From a virus: a stretch of 64,000 bases of DNA. How positions within the stretch are numbered: the first letter of the stretch is position 1; the number at the start of each line of letters is the position of its first letter. The stretch spans positions 1 through 64,000 of IMG/VR virus record IMGVR_UViG_3300036790_000219; one strand, 5' to 3'. Below are positions 1 through 18,189 of the stretch, piece after piece. The notes under the pieces are model-generated. The model made no database searches. It saw only the letters and a list, made by a program, of their open reading frames with translations, and had not been told where the DNA came from. The position numbers and the translations under genes are program-made.

Positions 1-15
1 TATTTTTTGAAAGCT

Positions 16-46
16 CCCTATACTTTGCGAGTATGTTGGTGTATAA
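16..46 (+). promoter_or_regulatory. putative phage promoter CCCTATACTTT-N15-TATAA (copy 1, upstream of tRNA array)
   Basis: Same motif and spacing at 8642 and 32162, each intergenic before an operon. Confidence 0.7.
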
Positions 47-240
47 GCTTCGTACTGTTAAGAGTCACTGTTCGAATATGCGTAGCGACTTTGCCGCCCC
101 TGGGCTATGTCCTAGGGAGCAGCGATTTTGCGTGTTGTTTGACATCGTGAACGTCCAGAATTGGGCGACGACTTTGTATACCTGCCTCCCTAACCGGGAC
201 GCGTAGCAGAAGCGTCGCCCGTTTGTCAATTTTTCAACTC

Positions 241-315
241 GCCGCCGTAGCTCAGCGATAGAGCAATTGTTTCGTAAACAATAGGTCGTCAGTTTGATCC
301 TGACCGGTGGCTCCA
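241..315 (+). tRNA. trnT: tRNA-Thr(CGU)
   Basis: Cloverleaf; ATTGT-TTCGTAA-ACAAT; CCA end. Confidence 0.9.
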
Positions 316-390
316 GCCAGTTTATCCTTAGTGGTAGAGGTCCTGTTTTGTAAGCAGGGTGTGTTGGTTCGATTCCAGCAACTGGCACCA
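316..390 (+). tRNA. trnT: tRNA-Thr(UGU)
   Basis: CCTGT-TTTGTAA-GCAGG; GTTCGA T-loop; CCA. Confidence 0.9.
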
Positions 391-399
391 TTAAATTTT

Positions 400-471
400 G
401 CCGTTTTAGCACAGTGGTAGTGCACCACATTGGTAATGTGGGGGTCAGTGGTTCAATCCCACTAGACGGCA
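400..471 (+). tRNA. trnT: tRNA-Thr(GGU)
   Basis: CCACA-TTGGTAA-TGTGG; no encoded CCA, abuts next tRNA. Confidence 0.88.
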
Positions 472-472
472 C

Positions 473-549
473 GCGTCGGTAGCCCAACGGTAGGAGGCGG
501 CTCCTTCAGAAGGAGTACAGTGTGGGTTCGAATCCCTCTCGACGCACCA
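473..549 (+). tRNA. trnL: tRNA-Leu(CAG), short variable loop
   Basis: GCTCC-TTCAGAA-GGAGT; CCA. Confidence 0.8.
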
Positions 550-555
550 TCTAAA

Positions 556-665
556 CAGATCGGATAACAGGAGCATTGGTCGCAAGCCAATCAAGTCACC
601 GGTCTGGGCTGGTGTTCCGTAGGACGCTGCGGCCTGTGATGGGGTTTAACCCTCAGATGCCAGCC
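556..665 (+). ncRNA. putative structured RNA (two folded domains) between tRNAs
   Basis: Stems CAGATCGG/CCGGTCTG and GGCTGGTGTT/GATGCCAGCC with internal hairpins. Confidence 0.4.
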
Positions 666-674
666 AGTTATTTT

Positions 675-752
675 GCCCCTGTAGCCCAAACGGTAAGAGG
701 CACCTGCTTCAAACCCAGGATAGTGTCAGTTCGAATCTGACCAGGGGCACCA
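675..752 (+). tRNA. trnL: tRNA-Leu(CAA), short variable loop
   Basis: CCTGC-TTCAAAC-CCAGG (C.C at 31-39); CCA. Confidence 0.8.
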
Positions 753-754
753 GT

Positions 755-852
755 TCAGATGATCGGTAGACCAGAATGGGCCTTAATGGGATTCGCCGAC
801 GTGAATGTACGAAACGGTTACCATCTGCCTTCAGGGCCGGTAGCTCATCTGA
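755..852 (+). ncRNA. putative multibranch structured RNA
   Basis: Closing stem TCAGATGA/TCATCTGA with nested GGCC and ATGG/CCAT helices. Confidence 0.35.
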
Positions 853-871
853 TTCGATTGATTCGCTTTTT

Positions 872-960
872 GTGGGTATGCTCGGAATGGTAGACGGCGC
901 GGACTTAAAATCCGTAGAGGCTGAAAAGGCTTGCAGGTTCGAGTCCTGCTACCCACACCA
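872..960 (+). tRNA. trnL: tRNA-Leu(UAA)
   Basis: GCGGA-CTTAAAA-TCCGT; long variable arm; CCA. Confidence 0.92.
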
Positions 961-1017
961 ATTTTAGAGGAAGCTATGGCAACTCCCTCTTAAAGAATAC
1001 CCGCAATTGAAGAGCAC

Positions 1018-1092
1018 GTGCGCTTAGCTCAGCGGTAGAGCGTCTGTTTTACACGCAGAATGTCGGGGGTTCGATCCCCTCAGCGCACACCA
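1018..1092 (+). tRNA. trnV: tRNA-Val(UAC)
   Basis: Cloverleaf, TAC anticodon, CCA. Confidence 0.88.
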
Positions 1093-1151
1093 CTTGATTT
1101 TATTATAACTTTGTTGAATTAATGCCTACTAAAAATATACGGTAGCAACAT

Positions 1152-1227
1152 GGGTCTTTAGCTCAGTGGAATGAGCGTCTCTTTGACATGGAGAAGGCCG
1201 CTGGTTCGACCCCAGCAAGACCCACCA
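1152..1227 (+). tRNA. trnV: tRNA-Val(GAC)
   Basis: TCTCT-TTGACAT-GGAGA; CCA. Confidence 0.9.
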
Positions 1228-1234
1228 ATAATTT

Positions 1235-1308
1235 GTACCTGTAGCTCAACGGTAGAGCACACGGCTGATAACCGTGCGACGAAGGTTCAACTCCTTACTG
1301 GTACACCA
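1235..1308 (+). tRNA. trnI: tRNA-Ile(GAU)
   Basis: CACGG-CTGATAA-CCGTG; CCA. Confidence 0.9.
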
Positions 1309-1359
1309 CATATAAAAGGAACTTCAAATCATGAGCAAGGATCGAAAACGGGCCAATAC

Positions 1360-1434
1360 GGACCCGTGGTGTAATAGGTAGCACGCTCGACTTTTAATCT
1401 TGAAGTCTGAGTTCAACTCTCAGCGGGTCTACCA
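1360..1434 (+). tRNA. trnK: tRNA-Lys(UUU), mismatched anticodon stem
   Basis: CTCGA-CTTTTAA-TCTTG; acceptor GGACCCG/CGGGTCT; CCA. Confidence 0.75.
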
Positions 1435-1444
1435 TTAAAATTTT

Positions 1445-1520
1445 GTGCCTTTAGCTCAGTTGGTAGAGCACCGTCCTCTTAAGTCGGGGGTCCTCGGTTC
1501 GAACCCGAGAAGGCGCGCCA
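1445..1520 (+). tRNA. trnK: tRNA-Lys(CUU)
   Basis: CCGTC-CTCTTAA-GTCGG; CCA. Confidence 0.88.
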
Positions 1521-1540
1521 AAAAAAAAAAAAAAAAAAAA
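1520..1540 (+). repeat. A21 homopolymer
   Basis: Run of 21 A starting at the CCA terminus of tRNA-Lys(CUU). Confidence 0.9.
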
Positions 1541-1542
1541 TT

Positions 1543-1629
1543 GTCCTCGTGGCGGAATTGGTAGACGCGCAACGTTGAGGCCGTTGTGGAGAAATACCGG
1601 TGCTGGTTCGATTCCAGTCGAGGACACCA
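1543..1629 (+). tRNA. trnL: tRNA-Leu(GAG)
   Basis: CAACG-TTGAGGC-CGTTG; long variable arm; CCA. Confidence 0.9.
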
Positions 1630-1634
1630 CTTTT

Positions 1635-1709
1635 GCGTCGTGATGCATCTGGTGAGGCAATCGGTCTGTCTAACCGACGAGACGGGTTCAACCCCCGTAC
1701 GACGCGCCA
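1635..1709 (+). tRNA. trnD: tRNA-Asp(GUC)
   Basis: TCGGT-CTGTCTA-ACCGA (U37); CCA. Confidence 0.87.
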
Positions 1710-1716
1710 AAATTCA

Positions 1717-1885
1717 GCTGATGGGTCCGGTGTCTGACGGTACAGCGGTACCAGACCCTGCCGGCTGCGTAAAACGGGACAATAGGGGTTTGTGTGTTTT
1801 CCCGTCCCTGAGCAACACGGAGTACCGAAGCCGCCCGTTGCTCATCCTGATCAGACGTAGGGCCTCTGATTACAACCCGACCAGC
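1717..1885 (+). ncRNA. putative ~170-nt four-hairpin structured RNA
   Basis: Hairpins GTCTG/CAGAC, ACGGGA/TCCCGT, TGAGCAAC/GTTGCTCA, TGATCAGA/TCTGATTA closed by GCTG..GGGT/ACCC..CAGC. Confidence 0.5.
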
Positions 1886-1905
1886 ATGCGGGGCACTCAA
1901 TTTTA

Positions 1906-1982
1906 CAGGGTACAGCTTAGTCCGGAAAAGCGCACGCCTCGGACGCGTGAGACCGCTGGTTCGAATCCAGCTACCCTGACCA
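1906..1982 (+). tRNA. trnP: tRNA-Pro(CGG)
   Basis: CACGC-CTCGGAC-GCGTG; CCA. Confidence 0.88.
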
Positions 1983-1987
1983 ATTCG

Positions 1988-2063
1988 GTGCACGTAGCTC
2001 AATCGGTAGAGCCGGTCGCTCATAACGGCCTCGATGCTGGTTCGATCCCAGCCGGGCACACCA
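1988..2063 (+). tRNA. tRNA-Met/Ile2(CAU)
   Basis: GGTCG-CTCATAA-CGGCC; CCA; Met vs Ile2 not resolvable by eye. Confidence 0.82.
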
Positions 2064-2084
2064 ACTCAGGAAGGAGGTTAGCAA

Positions 2085-2624
2085 ATGCAGAACTATCCCG
2101 CACTCGTTTTGAATGCTGACCTTCAGCCGGTCAACTATTTCCCGTTGTCGTTGATCACGTGGGAAGACGCAATCAAGGCTGTCTATGAAAAGACACACTT
2201 TGTGGTTGCTGAATATGAGCGCATAGTTCATAGCCCGTCGATCAGGATGAGGATCCCTTCGGTTCTAGCTTTGTGTAGATATCAGCCGGTTCCGAAGCAT
2301 GTCGCCTTCACGCGGTTCAATGTATTCTTGCGGGACCGCTTCCGTTGTCAGTATTGTGGTAGGAAGAAGCACGACAGCCGGGAGTTGACATTTGACCACG
2401 TACGTCCTCGGTCACAAGGTGGCCAGACGTGTTGGGAGAACGTTGTAGCGTGCTGCTCACCTTGCAACACGGAGAAGGACTGTCAAACTAGTATGCGACC
2501 ACTTCGGTTGCCACATCAGCCAACGTCTTCTGAGTTGATGGCGGCGAAGCGTGCGTTCCCGCCGAATTATCTGCATGAGACCTGGCGCGATTATCTCTAT
2601 TGGGATACCGCGTTGGAGCGTTGA
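2085..2624 (+). CDS. HNH endonuclease (McrA/HNH_5-like)
   Basis: LVLNAD start; RDRFRCQYCG..LTFDHVRPRSQGG..WENVVACCSPCN; RBS GGAGG. Confidence 0.9.
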   Translation: MQNYPALVLNADLQPVNYFPLSLITWEDAIKAVYEKTHFVVAEYERIVHSPSIRMRIPSVLALCRYQPVPKHVAFTRFNVFLRDRFRCQYCGRKKHDSRELTFDHVRPRSQGGQTCWENVVACCSPCNTEKDCQTSMRPLRLPHQPTSSELMAAKRAFPPNYLHETWRDYLYWDTALER

Positions 2625-2637
2625 GTATATGTTTTGA

Positions 2638-2714
2638 TTTCCGGTAGCTCAATGGATTAGAGCACAACCCTCCGAAGGTTGAGGTTGCTGGTTCGAGTCC
2701 AGTCCGGAAAACCA
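2638..2714 (+). tRNA. trnR: tRNA-Arg(CCG)
   Basis: CAACC-CTCCGAA-GGTTG; CCA. Confidence 0.92.
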
Positions 2715-2716
2715 AT

Positions 2717-2820
2717 ACGGATGGCGTAGATAGCGGTTACTTCGTTGGTTGAGGAACTGAGGTTCGCCTCAGTTTGGCCGGTTCAAATCCGGCAGAAACC
2801 GTCGTCGTTTGTTCCTCCGT
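2717..2820 (+). ncRNA. Y RNA 1 (Ro60-binding stem, T-arm-containing domain)
   Basis: TGGCGTAG-N4-CGGTTACTTCG ... TTGTTCC motif; closing ACGGA/TCCGT; T-arm GCCGGTTCAAATCCGGC. Confidence 0.75.
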
Positions 2821-2828
2821 TGAATTTG

Positions 2829-2918
2829 GGAAGGTCAACTCGTCAGGGTGTGAGCATCGCTTGGAAAGCGATTGGTACGTTAATAGCGTATGAGGATCGT
2901 GTCCTCGGCCTTCCGCCA
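2829..2918 (+). tRNA. trnS: tRNA-Ser(GGA)
   Basis: ATCGC-TTGGAAA-GCGAT; long arm; atypical T-loop ATCGTGT; CCA. Confidence 0.83.
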
Positions 2919-2939
2919 GTACTAAGGGATAGCTTACTT

Positions 2940-3488
2940 ATGCCAAAACGTGAGAAGCCACGTAAATATCCAAAGTGGGTGGTGAGGGTAGATGATGACG
3001 GTAAATTGTGGCGAAGGTTTGTTGAGAAACGCCGCGCAAGGTATACTGTTGGTTTCGAGCTTTCCTTTGAGCAGTTTTGTTCATTGTTGGTAGCCGCAAA
3101 GATAAAGAGTTCGGATATTGGCTTAAATAGATTCCATCTCGCTCGAATTGGCGATGAAGGTCCCTACGTCTTAGGATGTTGCCGCTTCCTTTGGTGTACC
3201 AAAAATACTGCAGAAATACGATCGGAGCGGCGTTATCGACCATTTGGAAACAAGATTTGGTTGGGGCGTACTCACACGTTAAAGACGCGTAAGCAGATGA
3301 GTAATTCTCATTTGGGTAAGCACGGCGGAACACTTAACTCACAATTTGGTCGTTGTTGGATAACCAAGAAGGGTGTTGATAAAAAGATTGCTGCTTCTGA
3401 ATTAACGTCCTACCTAAAGCGGGGCTTTAAGAGAGGGAGAGCAAAACCGTTTGGGAGCAGTAGCCAGCGGCCTGGCAGCGAGCCTTGA
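2940..3488 (+). CDS. free-standing HNH-type homing endonuclease with NUMOD3-like tail
   Basis: HLARIGDEGPYVLGCCRFLWCTKN His-Me-like motif; HTLKTRKQMSNSHLGK; start reassigned to ATG 2940. Confidence 0.7.
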   Translation: MPKREKPRKYPKWVVRVDDDGKLWRRFVEKRRARYTVGFELSFEQFCSLLVAAKIKSSDIGLNRFHLARIGDEGPYVLGCCRFLWCTKNTAEIRSERRYRPFGNKIWLGRTHTLKTRKQMSNSHLGKHGGTLNSQFGRCWITKKGVDKKIAASELTSYLKRGFKRGRAKPFGSSSQRPGSEP

Positions 3489-3538
3489 AAACTCGTAGCA
3501 CGGAAATGTGTGGGGATCGACACCTCACTGCTCCGCCA
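3454..3538 (+). tRNA. trnS: tRNA-Ser(UGA)
   Basis: CGAGC-CTTGAAA-ACTCG; acceptor GGAGCAG/CTGCTCC; CCA. Confidence 0.8.
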
Positions 3539-3542
3539 ATTA

Positions 3543-3632
3543 GGAGACATGGCTGAGTCCGGCTTAAAGCATCGCTCTCGAAAAGCGACACACCGCAAGG
3601 TGTCCTCCGTTCGAATCGGAGTGTCTCCGCCA
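3543..3632 (+). tRNA. trnS: tRNA-Ser(CGA)
   Basis: TCGCT-CTCGAAA-AGCGA; long arm; CCA. Confidence 0.92.
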
Positions 3633-3638
3633 AATTGA

Positions 3639-3712
3639 CGCGCGGTAGTGGAGGAGCTCCATAGAAGCCTCATAAGCTTCAGACCCCAGTGCAACTCTGG
3701 GCTGCGCAACCA
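3639..3712 (+). tRNA. tRNA-fMet-like (CAU)
   Basis: C1.A72 mismatch; GAAGC-CTCATAA-GCTTC; lacks the three G-C pairs of initiators. Confidence 0.75.
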
Positions 3713-3716
3713 AATT

Positions 3717-3808
3717 GAGTGGGAATATGTGCACGACGGCAAGGTGCCACCTGTCTGTAAAACAGGCCCTCTAAGGAGGCGGAGGTTCGACTCCTCTCCC
3801 ACTCACCA
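3717..3808 (+). tRNA. trnY: tRNA-Tyr(GUA)
   Basis: CCTGT-CTGTAAA-ACAGG; long arm; CCA. Confidence 0.85.
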
Positions 3809-3942
3809 TTTGATTACTTTTCTCAAGTGCAGTATGTTTAGCGTGTGTAGTAAATTGGCCAATGGAGGTATACAAATGAAGAAGCCTAGACAGCTTCGAT
3901 AACACAAATTAAAAAGACCTTAGAGATGATGTTATATAGGAT

Positions 3943-4013
3943 GGGCATGAGTTGCTATGGTTAGCGGGGCCGTCTGAAAAGCGGCCCTACGGAGTTCGAT
4001 TCCCTGTGGCTCG
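3943..4013 (+). pseudogene. degenerate tRNA-Phe(GAA)-like element
   Basis: GGCCGT-CTGAAAA-GCGGCC arm and GTTCGATT T-loop but imperfect acceptor and no CCA. Confidence 0.45.
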
Positions 4014-4019
4014 CTGTTG

Positions 4020-4225
4020 GTTTGGTCGGAATCGGTAGGCCAGACTATTTTGCCCGCGCCGATGACTTTCTTGCCTGGTGGAGAGAACCGTGGCACGTGT
4101 CTAGAGGAGGAACTCCAAGAGGGTTCCTTAAACAGCCTTGAATGATCAGAGGGCACGTAAGCAATGGTGTGGATCCAATCTGATTGTCCCTTTTGTCGAG
4201 ACAGGGGCAAATAAAGTCTCGACAA
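4020..4225 (+). ncRNA. putative structured RNA ending in H-type pseudoknot
   Basis: TTGTCCCT/AGGGGCAA interleaved with TTGTCGAGAC/GTCTCGACAA; upstream hairpins. Confidence 0.45.
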
Positions 4226-4232
4226 CCAATTT

Positions 4233-4307
4233 GCGGATGTAGTTCACCGGCAGAACGTCTCGTTGCCAACGAGAAAGTAGTGGGTTCAATTCCCACCATC
4301 CGCTCCA
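4233..4307 (+). tRNA. trnG: tRNA-Gly(GCC)
   Basis: TCTCG-TTGCCAA-CGAGA; U73; CCA. Confidence 0.92.
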
Positions 4308-4378
4308 ATAAGGTGCCGAATGCTTTATCAGGCTTAAATGTGAGCAGGAAAGCTAACCTCACAGCCTTAAAAACTATT

Positions 4379-4453
4379 GCCCAGGTAGCTCAGTGGTAGA
4401 GCACTGCACTGAAAATGCAGGTGTGGATGGTTCGATTCCATCTTTGGGCACCA
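4379..4453 (+). tRNA. trnF: tRNA-Phe(GAA)
   Basis: CTGCA-CTGAAAA-TGCAG; CCA. Confidence 0.93.
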
Positions 4454-4457
4454 TTTT

Positions 4458-4529
4458 GGGCCGGGCACTAGGGTGCAGCTGATCCTTGCAAGATTGGCGC
4501 GGTGGGTGCGGTCCCCACTCGGTCCACCA
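4458..4529 (+). tRNA. trnA: atypical tRNA-Ala(UGC)
   Basis: G3.U70, A73, loop CTTGCAA; shortened D region; T-loop TGCGGTC. Confidence 0.7.
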
Positions 4530-4622
4530 ACTATGCAAGTATCTGGCGCGAGTCATGTTGCGCTGGCCCTACTTGCTAGAGAGTGGGAACCCCGGTGCAC
4601 CGCAAGTACCACTCTCGCTTTT

Positions 4623-4699
4623 TCGAGGCAAGCGCACTAGGTGTGTGCACCTGACTGTTAATCAGGCCGCGCTCGGTTCGAATCCGAGGCCTCGAGCCA
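4623..4699 (+). tRNA. trnN: tRNA-Asn(GUU)
   Basis: CCTGA-CTGTTAA-TCAGG; CCA. Confidence 0.9.
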
Positions 4700-4703
4700 A
4701 TTC

Positions 4704-4779
4704 GCTCCCTTCCTCTAGCGGCTTAGGAGGTCGCCCTCTCACGGCGAGAACATGGGTTCGAATCCCATGGGGAGCGCCA
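4704..4779 (+). tRNA. trnE: tRNA-Glu(CUC)
   Basis: TCGCC-CTCTCAC-GGCGA; CCA. Confidence 0.92.
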
Positions 4780-4788
4780 AAGTTTTTT

Positions 4789-4864
4789 GCTCCTATAGCT
4801 CAGTGGATAGAGCGCCGTGCTACGAACGCGGATGTCGGGGGTTCGAATCCCTCTAGGAGCTCCA
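4789..4864 (+). tRNA. trnR: tRNA-Arg(ACG)
   Basis: CCGTG-CTACGAA-CGCGG; CCA. Confidence 0.92.
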
Positions 4865-4866
4865 AT

Positions 4867-4944
4867 CTGTGCATAGCTCAGCCTGGCCAGAGCACCTGCC
4901 TTGGGCGCAGGGGGTCGCAGGTTCAAATCCTGCTGCGCAGACCA
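4867..4944 (+). tRNA. trnP: tRNA-Pro(UGG)
   Basis: CCTGC-CTTGGGC-GCAGG; CCA. Confidence 0.93.
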
Positions 4945-4950
4945 AACTAA

Positions 4951-5026
4951 TGCCCGTTAGCTCAGCTGGTAGAGCACAACACTCTGAATGTTGGGGTCAT
5001 CCGTTCGAACCGGATACGGGCTTCCA
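4951..5026 (+). tRNA. trnQ: tRNA-Gln(CUG)
   Basis: CAACA-CTCTGAA-TGTTG; U1.U72; CCA. Confidence 0.85.
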
Positions 5027-5032
5027 AAATAT

Positions 5033-5106
5033 GGCAAAGTGGCGGAGTGGTTACGCAGCGGTCTGCAAAACCGTTTACACCGGTTCAATTCCGGTCTTTG
5101 CCTCCA
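5033..5106 (+). tRNA. trnC: tRNA-Cys(GCA)
   Basis: GCGGT-CTGCAAA-ACCGT; U73; CCA. Confidence 0.93.
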
Positions 5107-5147
5107 ACTCTAGGAAGTGCGCACCTAGACGGTGAAGGCCGCCGTGG

Positions 5148-5225
5148 CCTGGGAGGGTTGTCAAGGCAAAAGTATAGGTGACTACCGGGTTGATCGCCGT
5201 GTCGCTTATTGAGCCTGAGCCCAGG
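5148..5225 (+). ncRNA. putative long bulged hairpin RNA
   Basis: CCTGGG/CCCAGG, AGGC/GCCT, ATAGGTGAC/GTCGCTTAT, CGG/CCG. Confidence 0.4.
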
Positions 5226-5234
5226 ATGATTTTT

Positions 5235-5311
5235 GCTCTCGTAGCTCAGTGGACAGAGCGCCAGGCCTCTACCCTGGGACGTCGTGGGTTCGAATCCTAC
5301 CGAGAGCGCCA
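5235..5311 (+). tRNA. trnR: tRNA-Arg(UCU) with C33
   Basis: CCAGG-CCTCTAC-CCTGG; A20 in D loop; CCA. Confidence 0.8.
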
Positions 5312-5334
5312 ATTACTTTTACTTTGTTCATAAA

Positions 5335-5410
5335 GATCCCATAGTTCAGCGGATAGAATGCTGCGGTCCTAACGCAGAGGTCGCTGGTTCGAATCCAGCT
5401 GGGATCGCCA
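5335..5410 (+). tRNA. trnR: tRNA-Arg(CCU)
   Basis: CTGCG-GTCCTAA-CGCAG; CCA. Confidence 0.88.
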
Positions 5411-5419
5411 AGTTTCAAG

Positions 5420-5698
5420 AATTCTCCGGTTTGAGCATAGTTCCGGAGAAGGATGGCACTGAATGGTTATGATGGGAAGTGCGAACGGACGCGGGGGCAG
5501 TACCCGCCACCTCCACCATGCGGGGGTGAACCAGGATCGACGCCGCGCGGAATTCGTAACTTGTGCTCGGTGAGAGGCCCACGTTAGTGGCTGACAAACC
5601 ACAGATGCCAACGACAACGTTGTGCAGCTCAGTAGTTACGCCGCGAGGCGTAAATACTGAACCGGGTTCGGGTGGCACCTGGGAACAGAAGCCACCCA
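5420..5698 (+). ncRNA. ssrA: permuted two-piece tmRNA (alphaproteobacterial type)
   Basis: Acceptor piece ending CACCTCCACCA (5518) precedes GGGGGTGAACCAGGATCGAC (5522); G3.U70; tag ANDNVVQLSSYAARRKY* at 5607-5660. Confidence 0.9.
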
Positions 5699-5705
5699 CT
5701 TATTT

Positions 5706-5799
5706 GGAGCGTTGGCTGAGTCCGGCTTAAGGCAGCGGTTTGCTAAACCGTCACACGTCGTAAGATGTGTCCCGAGTTCAAATCTCGGACGCTCCGCCA
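5706..5799 (+). tRNA. trnS: tRNA-Ser(GCU)
   Basis: GCGGT-TTGCTAA-ACCGT; long arm; CCA. Confidence 0.93.
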
Positions 5800-5841
5800 A
5801 CTTCACCAAGGAAAGAAACATGGGCGGGTAAGCTAACCATC

Positions 5842-5915
5842 GCGGGTATAGCTCAATGGTAGAGCCAACGCCTTCCAAGCGAAAGACCGGGGTTCGATCC
5901 CCCGCACCCGCTCCA
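5842..5915 (+). tRNA. trnG: tRNA-Gly(UCC)
   Basis: CGC-CTTCCAA-GCG; U73; CCA. Confidence 0.88.
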
Positions 5916-5919
5916 AAGT

Positions 5920-6034
5920 TCTCGTGGCGACAGGAAATACACACCTCAGCAGTGTTGGATCGAAATGAAGTTTTTCTTAACGGAAAAAGCTAGCTGAGCT
6001 CTGCGAAGGCCAAGTAACTCAGCCCACGAGACCA
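5920..6034 (+). ncRNA. putative structured RNA closed by 8-bp stem followed by CCA
   Basis: TCTCGTGG/CCACGAGA-CCA; internal AGTTTTTC/GAAAAAGCT and GCTGAG/CTCAGC. Confidence 0.4.
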
Positions 6035-6110
6035 AGTCATTGTGTACTCAGCGACCGATGCTGAACATGAAAGATTTTACGGGCGACGAAGAGCTAGGAA
6101 GAGCAAACCG

Positions 6111-6323
6111 ATGACGGTGAAGACGAATGAAGACCGTATCCAGCAAGCAATTAACCTTGCTATTAGTTACGGTGGAATCGATGGTAGTCACCACAAAACA
6201 TGGGTGATTGACCAGATGTTGAGAGTTTTAACAGGCAATCTTTATGATAAGAGCATTGCCGAAGCTAGATCAGGCGAAGATGGTCCTGAGACCTATGATT
6301 GGGATGTAGGAATACCCCCGTAA
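6111..6323 (+). CDS. small phage hypothetical protein
   Basis: YGGIDGSHHKTWVIDQM motif, recalled from phage hypotheticals; ATG 6111. Confidence 0.65.
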   Translation: MTVKTNEDRIQQAINLAISYGGIDGSHHKTWVIDQMLRVLTGNLYDKSIAEARSGEDGPETYDWDVGIPP

Positions 6324-6375
6324 GCTAAATCCATAATGTTCCTGCCCAAAGTTCCTGCCCAAACGCGCGTGATTT

Positions 6376-6450
6376 GCTCCCTTCCTCTAGCGGCTAGGAG
6401 GCCGGACCTTCACTCCGGTAACGCGGGTTCGAGTCCCGCAGGGAGCACCA
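6376..6450 (+). tRNA. trnE: tRNA-Glu(UUC) with C33
   Basis: CCGGA-CCTTCAC-TCCGG; CCA. Confidence 0.85.
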
Positions 6451-6457
6451 ATTTTGA

Positions 6458-6528
6458 TGCGGGGCCTTCGGCAAGGATGTTGGCCTTTGAAGCCGACCAA
6501 GCGGGTTCGACCCCCGCACCCGCTGCCA
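6458..6528 (+). tRNA. trnQ: tRNA-Gln(UUG)
   Basis: TTGGC-CTTTGAA-GCCGA; CCA. Confidence 0.8.
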
Positions 6529-6529
6529 T

Positions 6530-6604
6530 GCCGGTGTAGCTCAGTGGTAGAGCATCCGAATCATAATCGGGTTGTCGCCAGTTCGATCCTGGCCATCGGT
6601 ACCA
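6530..6604 (+). tRNA. tRNA-Met/Ile2(CAU)
   Basis: TCCGA-ATCATAA-TCGGG (A32); CCA. Confidence 0.82.
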
Positions 6605-6609
6605 ACTTT

Positions 6610-6685
6610 GCTGGGTAAGCCAATCCGGTGACGGCGATGCGCTGTGGACGTGTCCAGGTCGGTTCAACTCCGACACCCAGTACCA
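6610..6685 (+). tRNA. trnH: tRNA-His(GUG) lacking G-1, A73
   Basis: ATGCG-CTGTGGA-CGTGT; T at -1, A discriminator. Confidence 0.85.
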
Positions 6686-6687
6686 TT

Positions 6688-6761
6688 AGGAGTGTAGCTC
6701 AACGGTAGAGCAGTGGTCTCCAAAACCACCGACCAGGGTTCGACACCTTGCACTCTTGCCA
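6688..6761 (+). tRNA. trnW: tRNA-Trp(CCA)
   Basis: GTGGT-CTCCAAA-ACCAC; CCA. Confidence 0.93.
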
Positions 6762-6832
6762 TTTGCCTAAATTCTGGACGTTACGGTGTTGACGTAATTC
6801 GTACTGTTTGAGTTGAGTAGTATGTTGTGGTT

Positions 6833-6923
6833 GCCTGTGGCGTAGGGTACGGTTACTTCGCGCTTGATGCGTGGTTTGTGTAACAGCGAACCAAGACTAA
6901 ACCACATCCGATTGTTCCCAGGC
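6833..6923 (+). ncRNA. Y RNA 2 (hairpin effector domain)
   Basis: Same Ro-binding motif; closing GCCTG/CAGGC; inner GTGGTTT/AAACCAC. Confidence 0.7.
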
Positions 6924-6930
6924 GCTTAAT

Positions 6931-7089
6931 AGATAGGAGCCGATGGCGTAGATTACGGTTACTTCGCATGGAAGCGCGTGGTCGGGGGTTCGAGTCCCTC
7001 CTACTCCACCACTATATGGGGGGTAGTAGCTCAGTTGGTTAGAGCAGCACGTCAAGATACCGCAATCGTTTGTTCCTCGGTTTCTATCT
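6931..7089 (+). ncRNA. yrlA: Y RNA 3, YrlA-type with circularly permuted tRNA-like domain
   Basis: Ro stem enclosing T-arm (GGGGGTTCGAGTCCCTC), loop-closed acceptor stem, then D-arm (TAGCTCAGTTGGTTAGAGC). Confidence 0.88.
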
Positions 7090-7118
7090 GTTAAGCGTCG
7101 CGTCATGGGTAAGAGTAG

Positions 7119-7219
7119 CGTGGACGTAGCCGACATAGATGGCGTAGGGCGCGGTTACTTCGCAGCAAAACGTAGAGAGACCGTTCCCGCTTTGTTCCTC
7201 TATGTCGGCTACGTCCACG
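7119..7219 (+). ncRNA. Y RNA 4 (minimal; perfect 21-bp terminal stem)
   Basis: CGTGGACGTAGCCGACATAGA/TCTATGTCGGCTACGTCCACG around the shared motif. Confidence 0.78.
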
Positions 7220-7247
7220 TGAGTTCCTCAAACCTTGGAGAAGGCCT

Positions 7248-8612
7248 ATGTCGCGTTTGAACGTTAAGACCCACCCAAACTATGGCCACACCCACGAAGG
7301 CGCACCAGCTGCTCGTATGAACGACGAGCAAGCTCTCCGTCGTTCTGTGATGTCCTGTCTTTTGTGGGAGGATGAGTTCTATGAGGACGGCGAGGAGATC
7401 AGCGCCCGTATTGTACGGTTGGCTAAGACCCTGCCACCTTGGACAGTTTCCTATATGGCTTGTCAGGCGCGGGAACAAGGCAATTTGCGCCATGTTCCGC
7501 TTCTGTTGCTCTCGGTTATTGCCGAGACTGGTCGGGGCCACAGGGAAGTTGCAGATGTCGTTGAGCGGGTTATTCAGCGTGCCGACGAACTGACTGAGTT
7601 CCTCGCGATCCACGCCAAGCGGAACAATGTTACACTTGACAAGATCAAGCCAACGCTTTCGGCCCAAATGAAGAAGGGTTTAGCGCGAGCGTTCCGCAAG
7701 TTTGATGAGTATCAGCTGGGGAAGTACGATCGTGCGGGCGGTATTCGTTTGCGGGACGTACTTTTCCTTTGCCACGCCAAGCCCCAGAACAAGGCTCAGG
7801 AGCGGCTCTGGAAGCGGTTGGTTCAGAATGAGCTCGAGGTCCCTGACACTTGGGAAGTTGCACTGACGCGCGGTGCCGACAAGAAGGAGACCTTCGAGCG
7901 GCTTCTTCGTGAAGGCCGATTGGGCTACCTGGCGCTGTTGCGTAACTTACGCAACATGGTACAGTCTGATTGCGACCCGGATCTGGTCAAGTCCGCTATC
8001 TTGGCACGTAGGGGTGGTGCAGACCGTGTTTTGCCATTCCGGTATACTGCAGCGGCACGGGCGGCTCCCCAGTTTGAATCCCAACTGGATGCTGCCCTAC
8101 AAGCGGCGGTGGGTGAGTTGCCGGTACTTATGGGTAAGACGGTCGTCCTTGTGGACGTCTCCCGTTCGATGGAATGGAAGTTGTCAGACAAGTCTGACTT
8201 GACCCGTATGGACGCAGCGGGAACGCTCGCTTCGATCGTCAACGCTGACCTCCGAGTGTTCACGTTCTCCGACGTCGTGTTGGAAGTCCCGGCTCGCCGT
8301 GGTATGGCAGGTGTGGATGTGATTAAGAACTCACAGGTACACAATGGTACCCATTTGTTTGATGCGGTTCATGAGATTAATGGGCTGGTAAAGTACGACC
8401 GTTTGATTGTGATCACTGATGAGCAAGCCGAACCAGGGAACTACAACATTCAGGGTCGGTTGAAGACCCTTCCAAACCCCGTGGGTTGTGGTTACATTAT
8501 TAATGTGGCATCGGCTAAGCACGGTGTCGGTTATGGAAAGTGGGTGCATGTTGATGGTTTCTCCGAATCGGTACTGCGATTTATTGCCATGCATGAGGAG
8601 AAGCAATCTTAA
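7248..8612 (+). CDS. rsr: Ro60/TROVE-vWA RNA-binding protein
   Basis: LRRSVMSCLLWEDEFYEDG, YLALLRNLRN, vWA LVDVSRSM and LIVITDEQ. Confidence 0.95.
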   Translation: MSRLNVKTHPNYGHTHEGAPAARMNDEQALRRSVMSCLLWEDEFYEDGEEISARIVRLAKTLPPWTVSYMACQAREQGNLRHVPLLLLSVIAETGRGHREVADVVERVIQRADELTEFLAIHAKRNNVTLDKIKPTLSAQMKKGLARAFRKFDEYQLGKYDRAGGIRLRDVLFLCHAKPQNKAQERLWKRLVQNELEVPDTWEVALTRGADKKETFERLLREGRLGYLALLRNLRNMVQSDCDPDLVKSAILARRGGADRVLPFRYTAAARAAPQFESQLDAALQAAVGELPVLMGKTVVLVDVSRSMEWKLSDKSDLTRMDAAGTLASIVNADLRVFTFSDVVLEVPARRGMAGVDVIKNSQVHNGTHLFDAVHEINGLVKYDRLIVITDEQAEPGNYNIQGRLKTLPNPVGCGYIINVASAKHGVGYGKWVHVDGFSESVLRFIAMHEEKQS

Positions 8613-8621
8613 GAAAAAAGT

Positions 8622-8655
8622 TAGGGGGTACACTAAATACCCCCTATACTTTTTC
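8622..8655 (+). terminator. hairpin plus T tract, probable intrinsic terminator overlapping promoter copy 2
   Basis: TAGGGGGTA/TACCCCCTA then TACTTTTT. Confidence 0.5.
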
Positions 8656-17124: not shown

Positions 17125-18189
17125 ATGCGTGTAATCTATGCTGACAACGTCAACGATGCTTTCTATCATGGGGTGAACGCTCTCATTCGAGACGGCGTTC
17201 GCCAGAGCTCTCGGGCTGGTTATGTGCTTGTAATGCCCTATCCAGTTTGTACGACGTACGCTTTCCCAGAGAAGCGCGTACTTTTCCATGCTAAGCGCGA
17301 TGCCAATCCGTTCTTCCATTTATTTGAGGCGTTATGGATGTTGGCTGGACAAAAGCATGGGGCTTGGCTTGACCAGTTTGTCCATGACTTTTCTGAACGC
17401 TTTGCTGAGGAGAACGGGGATATTCATGGAGCCTATGGTTTTCGCTGGCTTCGGCACTTTGACGTTGACGGTGGCGGGGAGGATCGGCGGCTTCCCAATC
17501 AGCTGGATACAATCGTTGAGCTTCTAAAAAAGGATCCAAACGATCGGCGCATTGTTTTGTCTATGTGGGACCCGGTGGCAGATTTGGGTGTTAGTAAGTT
17601 TGACATCCCATGTAATACTCATGTATATTTTCGAGTGCGAGAAGAAGAATTTAAGCCTGGTGGTTTCTTTGAGGAGTCGGACCATAAAACTGGGGGTCGC
17701 TTATTGGATATGACGGTTTGCTGCCGTTCAAATGATGCTGTGTGGGGTGCCTACGGTGCGAATGCCGTACACTTTTCGATCTTGCAGGAATATCTGGCCG
17801 CTCGGATCGGTGTCCAAATTGGGACTTACTACCAATTTAGCAACAACTTCCACATATATTCGGACATGGTAGATAAGCTAAGCCCTTTGGAGCCGGAGAA
17901 CCGTGACTTCTACTCTACTGGCACGGCAACGCGGATTGTGACTGTACCAGAAGACTTCGATGCGGAATTGGCGCTCTTTATGGGTGGGCATCCGCTACGG
18001 TGGACCTATTCTTACCGCAACGAATTCTTCCCTAAGGTGACATTGCCACTTCTTGAGGCACATGGCTTGTGGAAGCAGAAGCTGCGGAAGGAAGCACACG
18101 CGACTTTGCAGAAGCTTCCCTTCGGTTCGGATTGGCGGTTTGCAGCAGAACGTTGGATGCTGCGTCGTATGCATAAAGTGGGAGAGTGA
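17125..18189 (+). CDS. thymidylate-synthase-fold enzyme, probable dUMP hydroxymethylase
   Basis: RDANPFFHLFE, DIPCN, RSND..GAN (Asn = dUMP-specific position); context. Confidence 0.8.
   Translation: MRVIYADNVNDAFYHGVNALIRDGVRQSSRAGYVLVMPYPVCTTYAFPEKRVLFHAKRDANPFFHLFEALWMLAGQKHGAWLDQFVHDFSERFAEENGDIHGAYGFRWLRHFDVDGGGEDRRLPNQLDTIVELLKKDPNDRRIVLSMWDPVADLGVSKFDIPCNTHVYFRVREEEFKPGGFFEESDHKTGGRLLDMTVCCRSNDAVWGAYGANAVHFSILQEYLAARIGVQIGTYYQFSNNFHIYSDMVDKLSPLEPENRDFYSTGTATRIVTVPEDFDAELALFMGGHPLRWTYSYRNEFFPKVTLPLLEAHGLWKQKLRKEAHATLQKLPFGSDWRFAAERWMLRRMHKVGE

What the first reader, a model, noticed from the sequence alone, without database searches (positions are those of the whole stretch)
2717..8612. 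Phage Ro60 with four Y RNAs sharing one binding module but carrying different effector domains
Seen: TGGCGTAG-N4-CGGTTACTTCG...CG(N1-2)TTGTTCC occurs four times (2717, 6833, 6931, 7119), each closed by a different terminal stem with compensatory pairing. The enclosed domains differ: a T-arm plus long arm, a plain hairpin, a permuted tRNA (canonical YrlA) and a ~20-nt loop. Three copies lie directly upstream of rsr. Known: bacterial Ro60-Y RNPs use Y RNAs as tethers or gates, e.g. to PNPase, and some phages encode them. Inference: a modular phage RNP toolkit with four interchangeable adaptors, perhaps for handling or protecting damaged tRNAs of the 39-tRNA array.
Basis: partly seen in the sequence, partly recalled or inferred. 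Interest (0 to 1): 0.82.

Follow-up and report, generated by a model that had tools for sequence, protein, structure and literature searches.

The report
Phage Ro60 with four Y RNAs
A complete 120-kb phage genome encodes a Ro60 RNA-binding ring protein and four small Y RNAs that share one protein-docking module but carry different outer domains; this is real, but such arrays of 2 to 8 Y RNAs turn out to be the rule next to this kind of Ro60 gene in phages and bacteria.

Summary
UGGCGUAG-N4-CGGUUACUUCG ... UUGUUCC occurs exactly four times in the window and in the whole genome, always on the + strand, with 0 expected by chance.

A covariance model built only from elements of other viral contigs finds copies 1, 2 and 4 at 44-51 bits. 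A second model finds all four at 54-60 bits. Across 124 family members, all 16 modelled base pairs show compensatory changes: 94% of cells are paired, against 40-52% when the partners are slid.

The ORF at 7248-8612 is a true Ro60/Rsr. Its nearest solved relative is Thermus phage phiLo Ro60, and the 13 best fold matches are all Ro60.

So these are Y RNAs. However, four is ordinary for this clade: 40 viral loci have a median of 3 (range 1-5), Caulobacter phage CcrColossus has 8, and 80 bacterial loci hold 282. Phage Ro60 with Y RNAs is already published (2014, 2025). The proposed link to the tRNA array is weak, because most relatives have no array.

One new detail concerns copy 3. It has an open 7-bp acceptor stem with G3·U70, A73 and an encoded CCA, which is the alanine/tmRNA identity set, and three other phage lineages share this.

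Verdict: a new variant of a known kind, of moderate interest.

The parts
2717..2820 (+). Y RNA copy 1. It lies inside the tRNA array, 2 nt after tRNA-Arg(CCG) and 8 nt before tRNA-Ser(GGA). It has a 5-bp terminal stem and the docking module. Its inner domain is three hairpins on a closing helix, the third being a T arm (GCCGG-UUCAAAU-CCGGC), which gives a cloverleaf-like outline.
   Evidence: Model R1, which contains no window sequence, scores it 50.8 bits, E 2e-9. R2 scores it 59.5 bits. The fold has z = -3.2.
6833..6923 (+). Y RNA copy 2. It starts 71 nt after the last tRNA (Trp). It has a 5-6-bp terminal stem and the docking module. Its inner domain is two hairpins and has no tRNA-like arm.
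   Evidence: R1 48.3 bits, E 7e-9. R2 53.8 bits. Fold. The inner domain has no BLAST match in any fetched locus.
6921..7099 (+). Y RNA copy 3, of the YrlA type. It has a 23-bp terminal stem (6921-6943/7077-7099), the docking module (core 6939-7081) and a permuted tRNA-like domain. That domain comprises a T arm at 6984-7000, the acceptor 3' strand at 7001-7007, A73 at 7008, CCA at 7009-7011, an 8-nt linker at 7012-7019, the acceptor 5' strand at 7020-7026 and a D arm at 7029-7045.
   Evidence: Rfam YrlA RF02553 scores 33.5 bits over model positions 26-82, below the gathering score of 69. R2, built without this copy, scores 54.1 bits full length. Acceptor pairs were read from the sequence.
7118..7220 (+). 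Y RNA copy 4, of the minimal type. It has a 22-bp terminal stem (7118-7139/7199-7220). The docking module (core 7135-7203) is closed by a loop region of about 20 nt. It ends 27 nt before the rsr start codon.
   Evidence: R1 44.0 bits, E 7e-8. R2 54.4 bits. Fold -59.2 kcal/mol, z = -8.8.
7248..8612 (+). rsr, a Ro60 orthologue of 454 aa. It has a TROVE HEAT-repeat ring and a vWA domain with the MIDAS motif DxSxS (D303, S305, S307).
   Evidence: Pfam TROVE 6e-12. PHROG 850 RNA-binding protein 2e-53. phiLo Ro60 9KOP/9L5Y at 5e-19, and 4e-49 with a profile, which also finds human, Xenopus and Deinococcus Ro60. AF2 pLDDT 82.5, and the Foldseek top 13 are all Ro60, TM 0.61-0.68. MIDAS residues are invariant in 22 relatives.
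8622..8646 (+). Terminator-like hairpin with T runs on both strands. It closes the Y RNA-rsr unit.
   Evidence: Consensus scan. This is pattern evidence only.
241..6761 (+). Context: an array of 37 tRNA genes and a permuted (two-piece) tmRNA at 5409-5700. It is on the same strand and probably in the same transcription units as the Y RNAs.
   Evidence: ARAGORN. Rfam tRNA hits and alpha_tmRNA at 134.8 bits.

Best explanation
The four elements are genes for Y RNAs, the small RNA partners of the phage's own Ro60 (Rsr) protein.

Each RNA has the same docking module. A terminal stem leads through a bulged U and two G-C pairs into an asymmetric internal loop, with 5' C-G-U-A and 3' G-N(1-2)-U-U-G-U-U. 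A second helix of about 9 bp follows, capped by an invariant UACUUC. Ro60 most likely binds this module on its outer basic surface, as shown for Xenopus Ro60 and for Thermus phage phiLo Ro60.

The variable distal domains probably recruit different host factors or gate the Ro60 ring differently. These domains are a cloverleaf-like fold with a T arm (copy 1), two hairpins (copy 2), a permuted tRNA mimic (copy 3) and a short A-rich loop (copy 4). The best precedent for a partner is host PNPase, because the phage has no PNPase, RtcB or CCA-adding enzyme of its own.

The RNAs are probably cut out of long tRNA-Y RNA-rsr transcripts. Copies 1 and 2 would be released by the tRNA-processing enzymes acting on their neighbours. 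Copies 3 and 4 would be released by a double-strand-specific nuclease acting on their 22-23-bp stems.

Shown here: the family, its structure, its linkage to rsr and the Ro60 fold. Inferred: binding, processing, partners and the effect on infection.
For: - Statistics: the motif occurs four times against 0 expected.
- Independent model: R1 was built from 14 elements of other contigs and still finds copies 1, 2 and 4 full length at 44-51 bits. R2 finds all four, and only these four, in the complete genome.
- Covariation: on 124 elements, 93.9% of cells are paired against 40-52% when slid. All 16 pairs have double changes, and 0 of 500 shuffles reach the covariation score.
- Linkage: every hit in viral, cultured-phage and bacterial loci is on the rsr strand. 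Hits lie upstream of rsr everywhere except in one phage, where they lie downstream.
- Motif: GGCGUAG differs at one base from the published Rsr-binding motif GNCGAA(N0-1)G, and 24 of 124 relatives have GGCGAAG (PMC4201824).
- Protein: it is Ro60 by sequence and by fold. The phiLo Ro60 RNA-contact residues K141, K142, R169 and R178 align with K142, K143, R169 and K178 (PMC12135203).
- Precedent: phiLo Ro60 binds two Y-like RNAs encoded upstream of its gene and also binds host PNPase (PMC12135203).
- The phage lacks RtcB, an RNase PH-fold enzyme and a CCA-adding enzyme.
Against: - No expression, end-mapping or binding data exist for this uncultured phage.
- The alignments used for pair counts were fitted to the model, which inflates the paired percentage, although it does not create the double changes.
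- The internal loop shows no Watson-Crick covariation. A 'bulged Ro helix' like that of animal Y RNAs is therefore not demonstrated; only the two flanking helices are.
- Three copies lie in the rsr leader, so a cis-regulatory role is not excluded.
- Copy 3 is below Rfam's YrlA threshold.
- Processing by a double-strand nuclease and PNPase as the partner are analogies, not results.
Confidence: 0.85

Rival explanations
1. The three copies in front of rsr are cis-acting elements of the rsr mRNA leader. In this view they are autoregulatory Ro60 binding sites or processing signals, not free-standing RNAs with their own partners.
For: Copies 2-4 fill the 486 nt between the last tRNA and the rsr start. 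Copy 4 ends 27 nt before the ATG. No sigma-70-like promoter is predicted between them and rsr.
Against: Copy 1 lies 4.4 kb upstream between two tRNAs. In Microcystis phage Mvi-JY20 both copies lie downstream of rsr. In M. smegmatis, Y RNAs are processed from one precursor with rsr and still accumulate bound to Rsr (PMC4201824). The diversified, structured distal domains would have no purpose in a simple operator.
Confidence: 0.08
2. They are tRNA-derived relics or a mobile repeat that spread within tRNA arrays and has no link to Ro60.
For: Copies 1 and 3 carry T arms. Copy 1 sits inside the array. ARAGORN and GenBank annotate some relatives as tRNAs. One relative shows an element nested inside another.
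Against: There are only four copies in the genome, all near rsr and on its strand. 406 hits in 120 of 121 other rsr loci, plus up to 22 in five of seven cultured phages, are all on the rsr strand. The conserved part is the non-tRNA module, with compensatory changes. Most related loci have no tRNA array.
Confidence: 0.03
3. The module is bound mainly by a protein other than Ro60, for example a host tRNA- or rRNA-processing factor. In this view the linkage to rsr reflects a shared pathway rather than direct binding.
For: The invariant UACUUC cap (124 of 124 for U27 and C29) and the 3' strand are not part of the published Rsr motif. No binding data exist.
Against: The 5' motif matches the mapped Rsr/phiRo60 contact site (PMC4201824, PMC12135203). 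The basic contact residues are conserved in the protein.
Confidence: 0.04

Closest known systems
Bacterial YrlA/YrlB Y RNAs with Rsr (Salmonella, Mycobacterium smegmatis; Rfam RF02553; Chen et al. 2014, PMC4201824)
   Same: They are encoded next to rsr on the same strand. Their 5' and 3' ends are paired. They have a GNCGAA(N)G-type motif near the 5' end. One RNA has a T arm, an acceptor-like stem and a D arm in permuted order, and it is accompanied by one or more shorter hairpin RNAs. As in M. smegmatis YrlA, copy 3 has a 7-bp acceptor stem.
   Different: There are four RNAs rather than two. The motif reads GGCGUAG. Both strands of the docking module and a UACUUC cap are conserved, whereas only the 5' strand is recognisable in the Salmonella and M. 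smegmatis RNAs. The Rfam model reaches only 33.5 of 69 bits on copy 3 and finds none of the others. In copy 3 the CCA is encoded and the stem carries G3·U70.
Thermus phage phiLo Ro60 with Yrl1 and Yrl2 (Hu et al. 2025, PMC12135203; PDB 9KOP, 9L5Y)
   Same: It is a phage-encoded Ro60, and the nearest solved structure to the window protein. Its Y-like RNAs lie upstream of the gene and have a stem, an internal loop with a CGAA-type motif, and a second stem. It has no phage PNPase, so host PNPase is the partner. Basic RNA-contact residues are shared.
   Different: Protein identity is only 24% in the structural alignment. phiLo has two RNAs, here there are four. No tRNA-like domain is reported for Yrl1 or Yrl2. 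The host is a Thermus species, whereas here the host is probably an alphaproteobacterium.
Animal Y RNAs (for example human Y1, Y3, Y4, Y5) with Ro60
   Same: Several paralogous RNAs share one Ro60-binding stem and differ in their distal loops, which bind different proteins.
   Different: Animal Y RNAs have no tRNA-like domains. In animals the binding site is a helix with a bulged C. Here it is an asymmetric internal loop without detectable Watson-Crick covariation.
Two-piece (permuted) tmRNA of Alphaproteobacteria
   Same: The tRNA-like domain of copy 3 has the same gene order: T arm, acceptor 3' strand, ACCA, linker, acceptor 5' strand. It has the same G3·U70/A73 identity set as the phage's own tmRNA at 5409-5700.
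   Different: Copy 3 has no mRNA-like reading frame or pseudoknots. It has a normal D arm, and the docking module replaces the anticodon arm. It is not a sequence copy of the tmRNA.

Membership tests
Bacterial Y RNA (YrlA/YrlB type) | Encoded within a few kb of a Ro60/rsr gene on the same strand | tested here: met
   Copies 2-4 lie 27-416 nt upstream of rsr and copy 1 lies 4.4 kb upstream, all on +. The same holds for 124 viral and 282 bacterial hits.
Bacterial Y RNA (YrlA/YrlB type) | GNCGAA(N0-1)G motif near the 5' end | tested here: inconclusive
   All four copies read GGCGUAG, which is one substitution (A to U) from the motif. In the family this position is U in 83, A in 24 and C in 15 of 124 elements, so exact GGCGAAG occurs in relatives.
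Bacterial Y RNA (YrlA/YrlB type) | 5' and 3' ends pair to form a stem that encloses the Ro60 site | tested here: met
   Terminal stems are 5, 6, 23 and 22 bp. All 7 pairs of the outer helix and all 9 pairs of the inner helix show compensatory changes.
Bacterial Y RNA (YrlA/YrlB type) | At least one RNA per locus has a tRNA-like domain (T arm, acceptor-like stem, D arm) | tested here: met
   Copy 3 at 6979-7046 aligns to positions 26-82 of Rfam YrlA with E 6e-6. The full model score is below the gathering threshold.
Bacterial Y RNA (YrlA/YrlB type) | Stable RNA that co-purifies with Ro60 | not testable with these tools
   The phage is uncultured and no RNA-seq or binding data are available.
Rfam YrlA (RF02553) | Score at or above the gathering threshold of 69 bits | tested here: not met
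   No hit at gathering thresholds. The best is 33.5 bits on copy 3 only.
Ro60 / Rsr (TROVE protein) | TROVE HEAT-repeat ring followed by a vWA domain with a MIDAS motif | tested here: met
   Pfam TROVE 6e-12 and weak vWA hits. The profile finds phage, human, Xenopus and Deinococcus Ro60. The AF2 model matches 13 Ro60 chains over the full length. DxSxS is invariant.
Ro60 / Rsr (TROVE protein) | Basic outer surface that contacts the Y RNA stem | tested here: inconclusive
   Four of the eight mutated phiRo60 residues align with K or R in the window protein. This is an alignment at low identity, and no docking or binding test was done.

The most novel reading that the evidence does not exclude
Copy 3 may be one of a small, apparently phage-restricted subclass of Y RNAs that are matured like two-piece tmRNA: RNase P cleavage at G7020 and a free encoded CCA at 7009-7011. 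Such RNAs would carry alanine identity (G1-C72, G2-C71, G3·U70, A73). The phage Ro60 would then hold a chargeable tRNA-Ala/tmRNA-like end, able to engage AlaRS, EF-Tu or the ribosome. This would occur in a phage whose 37-tRNA set lacks tRNA-Ala. More broadly, the arrays of 2-8 Y RNAs with shuffled distal domains may be sets of adaptors that direct one Ro60 ring to several host machines during infection.
Probability: 0.15. Interest if true: 0.8.

Novelty: new variant of a known kind. Interest (0 to 1): 0.52.

Why it matters
Ro60-Y RNA particles are conserved from bacteria to humans, yet what the variable part of a Y RNA does is known for very few cases.

This locus belongs to a large, mostly unannotated family. 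I found 124 elements in 41 viral stretches, 282 in 80 bacterial loci, and 8 in the cultured Caulobacter phage CcrColossus. In this family one conserved docking module is combined with many different distal domains.

That gives a natural series of 'same anchor, different adaptor' RNAs, and a tractable model system in CcrColossus on Caulobacter crescentus. With it one can ask which partners each domain recruits and why phages carry the system.

It also shows three practical points. Rfam's YrlA model misses this family. Genome records annotate some of its members as tRNAs. A subclass carries a full alanine acceptor identity, which makes the old question of whether a Y RNA can be aminoacylated directly testable.

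Tried and rejected
- Rfam at gathering thresholds found no Y RNA. At relaxed thresholds only the tRNA-like core of copy 3 matched YrlA.
- My first regex descriptor missed copy 2 and gave spurious hits, so I replaced it with covariance models.
- A mutual-information scan of the internal loop against its opposite strand found no Watson-Crick covariation; the highest value was 0.16 bits. I therefore do not claim an animal-type bulged helix.
- BLAST of the four inner domains against all fetched loci found no orthologues for copies 1, 2 and 4.
- A weak R1 hit antisense to the tmRNA (5471-5520, E 0.047) disappeared with R2, so I reject it.
- The ARAGORN tRNA-Ala at 17686-17777 lies in coding DNA and has no Rfam tRNA hit, so I reject it.
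- The supplement of Chen et al. 2014 and the 2020 Annual Review were not available. I therefore could not check which phages were already listed there or how many Y RNAs per locus were reported.
- The phage has no RtcB, RNase PH-fold or CCA-adding enzyme.


Full report
**1. Observation**

The pattern TGGCGTAG-N4-CGGTTACTTCG matches four times in the window, at 2722, 6838, 6944 and 7140, all on the + strand. No match appeared in 100 dinucleotide-preserving shuffles, even with two mismatches allowed. Each match is followed by TTGTTCC at 2809, 6912, 7070 and 7192.

The window is the first 64 kb of a complete 120,057-bp virus record with direct terminal repeats. That record holds no further copy.

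Each copy is closed by its own terminal stem of 5, 6, 23 or 22 bp. In each copy the variable N4, together with the preceding G, pairs with a matching 3' segment: GAU/GUC, GGGU/AUCC, GAUU/AAUC, GGG/CCC.

Three details need correcting:
- Copy 2 contains two hairpins, not one.
- Copy 3 is not a threshold-level Rfam YrlA.
- ARAGORN finds 37 tRNAs in the array, not 39.

**2. The protein**

ORF 7248-8612 (454 aa) matches Pfam TROVE at 6e-12, with weak vWA hits, and PHROG 850 'RNA-binding protein' at 2e-53.

By sequence, its nearest solved relative is the Ro60 of Thermus phage phiLo (9KOP/9L5Y, E 5e-19 over residues 14-445). A profile of 22 relatives raises this to 4e-49. The profile also finds human RO60 (3e-12), Xenopus Ro60 (1e-9) and Deinococcus Rsr (2e-5).

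An AlphaFold2 model (mean pLDDT 82.5) has Ro60 or Rsr chains as its 13 best PDB matches, all full length, with TM 0.61-0.68. The MIDAS motif DxSxS (D303, S305, S307) is invariant in the clade.

In phiLo Ro60, the residues K141, K142, R169 and R178 weaken Y RNA binding when mutated (PMC12135203). They align with K142, K143, R169 and K178 here. The gene is therefore a true Ro60 orthologue.

**3. The RNAs are members of a large family linked to rsr**

The exact motif occurs in 17 IMG/VR contigs. A protein-based search independently gave 31 viral loci with a related rsr.

I built covariance model R1 from 14 short hairpin-type elements of other contigs, with none from the window. It finds window copies 1, 2 and 4 full length at 50.8, 48.3 and 44.0 bits (E at most 7e-8). 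It finds copy 3 only partly, because its 125-nt insert exceeds the model's reach.

R1 found 81 hits in 43 sources. Model R2, built from those hits without copy 3, finds all four window copies at 53.8-59.5 bits and 124 hits in 42 sources. All hits are on the rsr strand, and 40 of the 41 other viral loci have at least one.

On the 124 elements:
- 93.9% of base-pair cells are standard pairs, against 40-52% when the 3' partners are slid by 1-3 columns.
- All 16 pairs show changes on both sides.
- There are 666 double-change cells, against 187 in shuffles.
- No shuffle out of 500 reaches the covariation score.

The alignment was fitted to the model, which inflates the paired percentage. It cannot create the many G-C to A-U, C-G and U-A exchanges.

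**4. Anatomy of the shared module**

From the outside in, the module comprises:
- a terminal stem;
- a bulged U (122 of 124);
- two G-C pairs that themselves covary to A-U;
- an internal loop with 5' Y-G-N-A and 3' G-N-Y-U-G-U-U;
- a helix of about 9 bp;
- UACUUC, with U27 and C29 invariant in 124 of 124.

The 5' string G-G-C-G-U-A-G is the published Rsr-binding motif GNCGAA(N0-1)G with one substitution. In 24 of 124 relatives it reads GGCGAAG (PMC4201824).

The loop nucleotides show no Watson-Crick covariation with the opposite strand; the maximum mutual information is 0.16 bits. I therefore describe the site as two covarying helices around a conserved asymmetric loop, not as a proven animal-type bulged helix. 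This matches the 'stem, internal bulge with CGAA, stem' description of the phiLo Yrl RNAs, where each base of CGAA contributes to binding (PMC12135203).

**5. The distal domains differ**

- Copy 1: three hairpins on the closing helix. The middle one has a UUCG tetraloop and the third is a canonical T arm, giving a cloverleaf-like outline opened at the 'acceptor' side.
- Copy 2: two hairpins.
- Copy 3: a permuted tRNA mimic whose T arm, acceptor-like stem and D arm align to positions 26-82 of Rfam YrlA (33.5 bits, E 6e-6).
- Copy 4: only a loop region of about 20 nt.

BLAST finds no relative of the inner parts of copies 1, 2 and 4 in any fetched locus, while the module is conserved. The anchor is therefore under strong constraint and the adaptors turn over quickly.

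**6. Four is not unusual**

| Source | Y RNA hits |
|---|---|
| 40 viral loci | median 3, range 1-5, 11 loci with four or more |
| Caulobacter phage CcrColossus | 8, upstream of its 'TROVE-like' gp139 |
| Brevundimonas phage Kabachok | 5 |
| Xanthomonas phage 10KY502B | 5 |
| Microcystis phage Mvi-JY20 | 2, downstream of rsr |
| Rhizobium phage RHph_TM39 | 1-2 |
| crAss001 and RsoM2USA | 0 with this model |
| 80 bacterial contigs (Caulobacterales, Hyphomicrobiales, Acidobacteriota and others) | 282 within 3 kb upstream |

None of these elements is annotated as a Y RNA. The tRNA-Gln of CcrColossus and the tRNA-Thr of 10KY502B overlap Y RNA hits.

The element lengths fall into classes:

| Length | Number | Type |
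|---|---|---|
| 50-75 nt | 41 | minimal |
| 75-120 nt | 39 | intermediate |
| 120-140 nt | 42 | YrlA type |

This fits the published rule that each species has one tRNA-like Y RNA and at least one hairpin Y RNA (PMC4201824).

**7. What is already known**

- Chen et al. 2014 reported YrlA-like RNAs next to rsr in 254 bacteria and 22 phages, and at least two Y RNAs in each studied species.
- Hu et al. 2025 showed that a phage Ro60 binds two phage-encoded Y-like RNAs and host PNPase, and attenuates PNPase.
- The jumbo-phage survey PMC7824862 notes TROVE proteins with a tRNA-like partner.

I found no paper in the searchable library that describes arrays of four or more Y RNAs or this two-strand module. 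However, the supplement of the 2014 paper and the 2020 review were not available to me.

**8. The tRNA-array idea**

In the window, the Y RNAs end a 37-tRNA array that also holds a tmRNA, and copy 1 lies between two tRNAs. Among 41 related viral loci, only four sit next to arrays of 10 or more tRNAs. Several isolated 'tRNAs' in the others are YrlA cores. The 43-kb Xanthomonas phages have five Y RNAs and no array.

The system therefore does not depend on a phage tRNA set. Co-transcription and shared processing are the simpler reasons for the adjacency. A role in tRNA fragment clearance is possible by analogy with the Salmonella rsr-yrlBA-rtcBA operon, which responds to damaged tRNAs (PMC7790460), but nothing here tests it. 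The phage encodes no RtcB, RNase PH-fold enzyme or CCA-adding enzyme, so its partners must come from the host.

**9.

In copy 3 the stem between the T and D arms is not a closed hairpin as in most YrlA RNAs. It is a 7-bp acceptor stem, GGGGUAG (7020-7026) with CUACUCC (7001-7007). This gives G1-C72, G2-C71, G3·U70, then A73 and an encoded CCA (7008-7011). An 8-nt linker joins CCA to G1.

This is the alanine identity set of tRNA-Ala and tmRNA. The gene order is that of two-piece tmRNA, which this phage also encodes.

Among the permuted tRNA-like domains in all fetched loci, the same set (GGG...UCC-ACCA) occurs in three other phage lineages:
- L042/L105;
- L063;
- CcrColossus and CcrPW.

Their linkers are 4, 31 and 30 nt, and pairs 4-7 differ through compensatory changes. 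It occurs in none of the 80 bacterial loci. The other NCCA cases have short loops and no G1, and look like chance.

M. smegmatis YrlA, the only known case with a 7-bp stem, is cut by RNase P and receives CCA in vivo. Its authors raised aminoacylation as a possibility (PMC4201824).

The complete phage genome has no credible tRNA-Ala. I rate actual charging as possible but unproven, at about 0.15.

**10. Mechanism and verdict**

Shown:
- four members of a covariation-supported RNA family that is tightly linked to a true Ro60 gene;
- a conserved docking module that contains the known Rsr motif;
- divergent distal domains.

Inferred:
- Ro60 binds the module.
- The RNAs are released from tRNA-Y RNA-rsr transcripts by tRNA-processing enzymes (copies 1 and 2) and by a double-strand nuclease acting on the 22-23-bp stems (copies 3 and 4).
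- The distal domains recruit host factors such as PNPase, or gate the ring.

Rival readings (cis-acting leader elements, tRNA relics or mobile repeats, another binding protein) are each unlikely for the reasons given under the rival explanations.

The finding is real and correctly identified. It is a new variant within a known kind rather than a new system, and its headline feature of four RNAs is typical of the clade. Interest is moderate. The family-wide arrays and the alanine-type acceptor are the parts worth following up.

Noticed in passing
window 7001-7026: The tRNA-like domain of copy 3 has an open 7-bp acceptor stem with G3·U70, A73 and an encoded CCA, which is the alanine/tmRNA identity set. 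Three other phage lineages share this, with compensatory changes at pairs 4-7. None of the 80 bacterial loci has it.
   Followed up: partly
window 1-6761 and whole genome: The 37-tRNA set covers 19 amino acids but has no credible tRNA-Ala. The ARAGORN 'tRNA-Ala' at 17686-17777 lies in coding DNA and has no Rfam tRNA hit.
   Followed up: partly
window 1360-1434: This tRNA has anticodon UUA, which would read the stop codon UAA (Rfam tRNA 57.7 bits). I did not check whether the phage has in-frame TAA codons.
   Followed up: no
window 5409-5700: This is a permuted, two-piece alpha-type tmRNA (134.8 bits). Only 3 nt separate the CCA of the acceptor piece from G1 of the coding piece.
   Followed up: no
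L010 5717-5957 and L012 1227-1467, compared with L006 7183-7314: In two contigs a minimal Y RNA is nested inside the 3' strand (CGAUUGUUCC) of a YrlA-type Y RNA, compared with otherwise near-identical contigs. This looks like recombination between the shared modules.
   Followed up: no
L049 1263-2454 (Caulobacter phage CcrColossus, JX100810.1): Eight Y RNA hits fill the unannotated gap upstream of the TROVE-like gp139. The annotated tRNA-Gln (1673-1740) and two 'terminators' overlap or adjoin them. The tRNA-Thr of Xanthomonas phage 10KY502B (L051 2322-2389) also overlaps a Y RNA hit.
   Followed up: partly
L162-L241 (bacterial genome contigs): The same Rsr clade (52-63% identity) is common in Caulobacterales, Hyphomicrobiales, Acidobacteriota and other groups. 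Upstream of each gene there are 1 to about 7 Y RNA hits. I did not check whether these loci are prophages.
   Followed up: partly
window 2085-2624 and 2940-3488: An HNH endonuclease gene (PHROG 16726, 4e-34) and an ORF with no family match sit inside the tRNA array, on either side of Y RNA copy 1 and its two neighbouring tRNAs.
   Followed up: no
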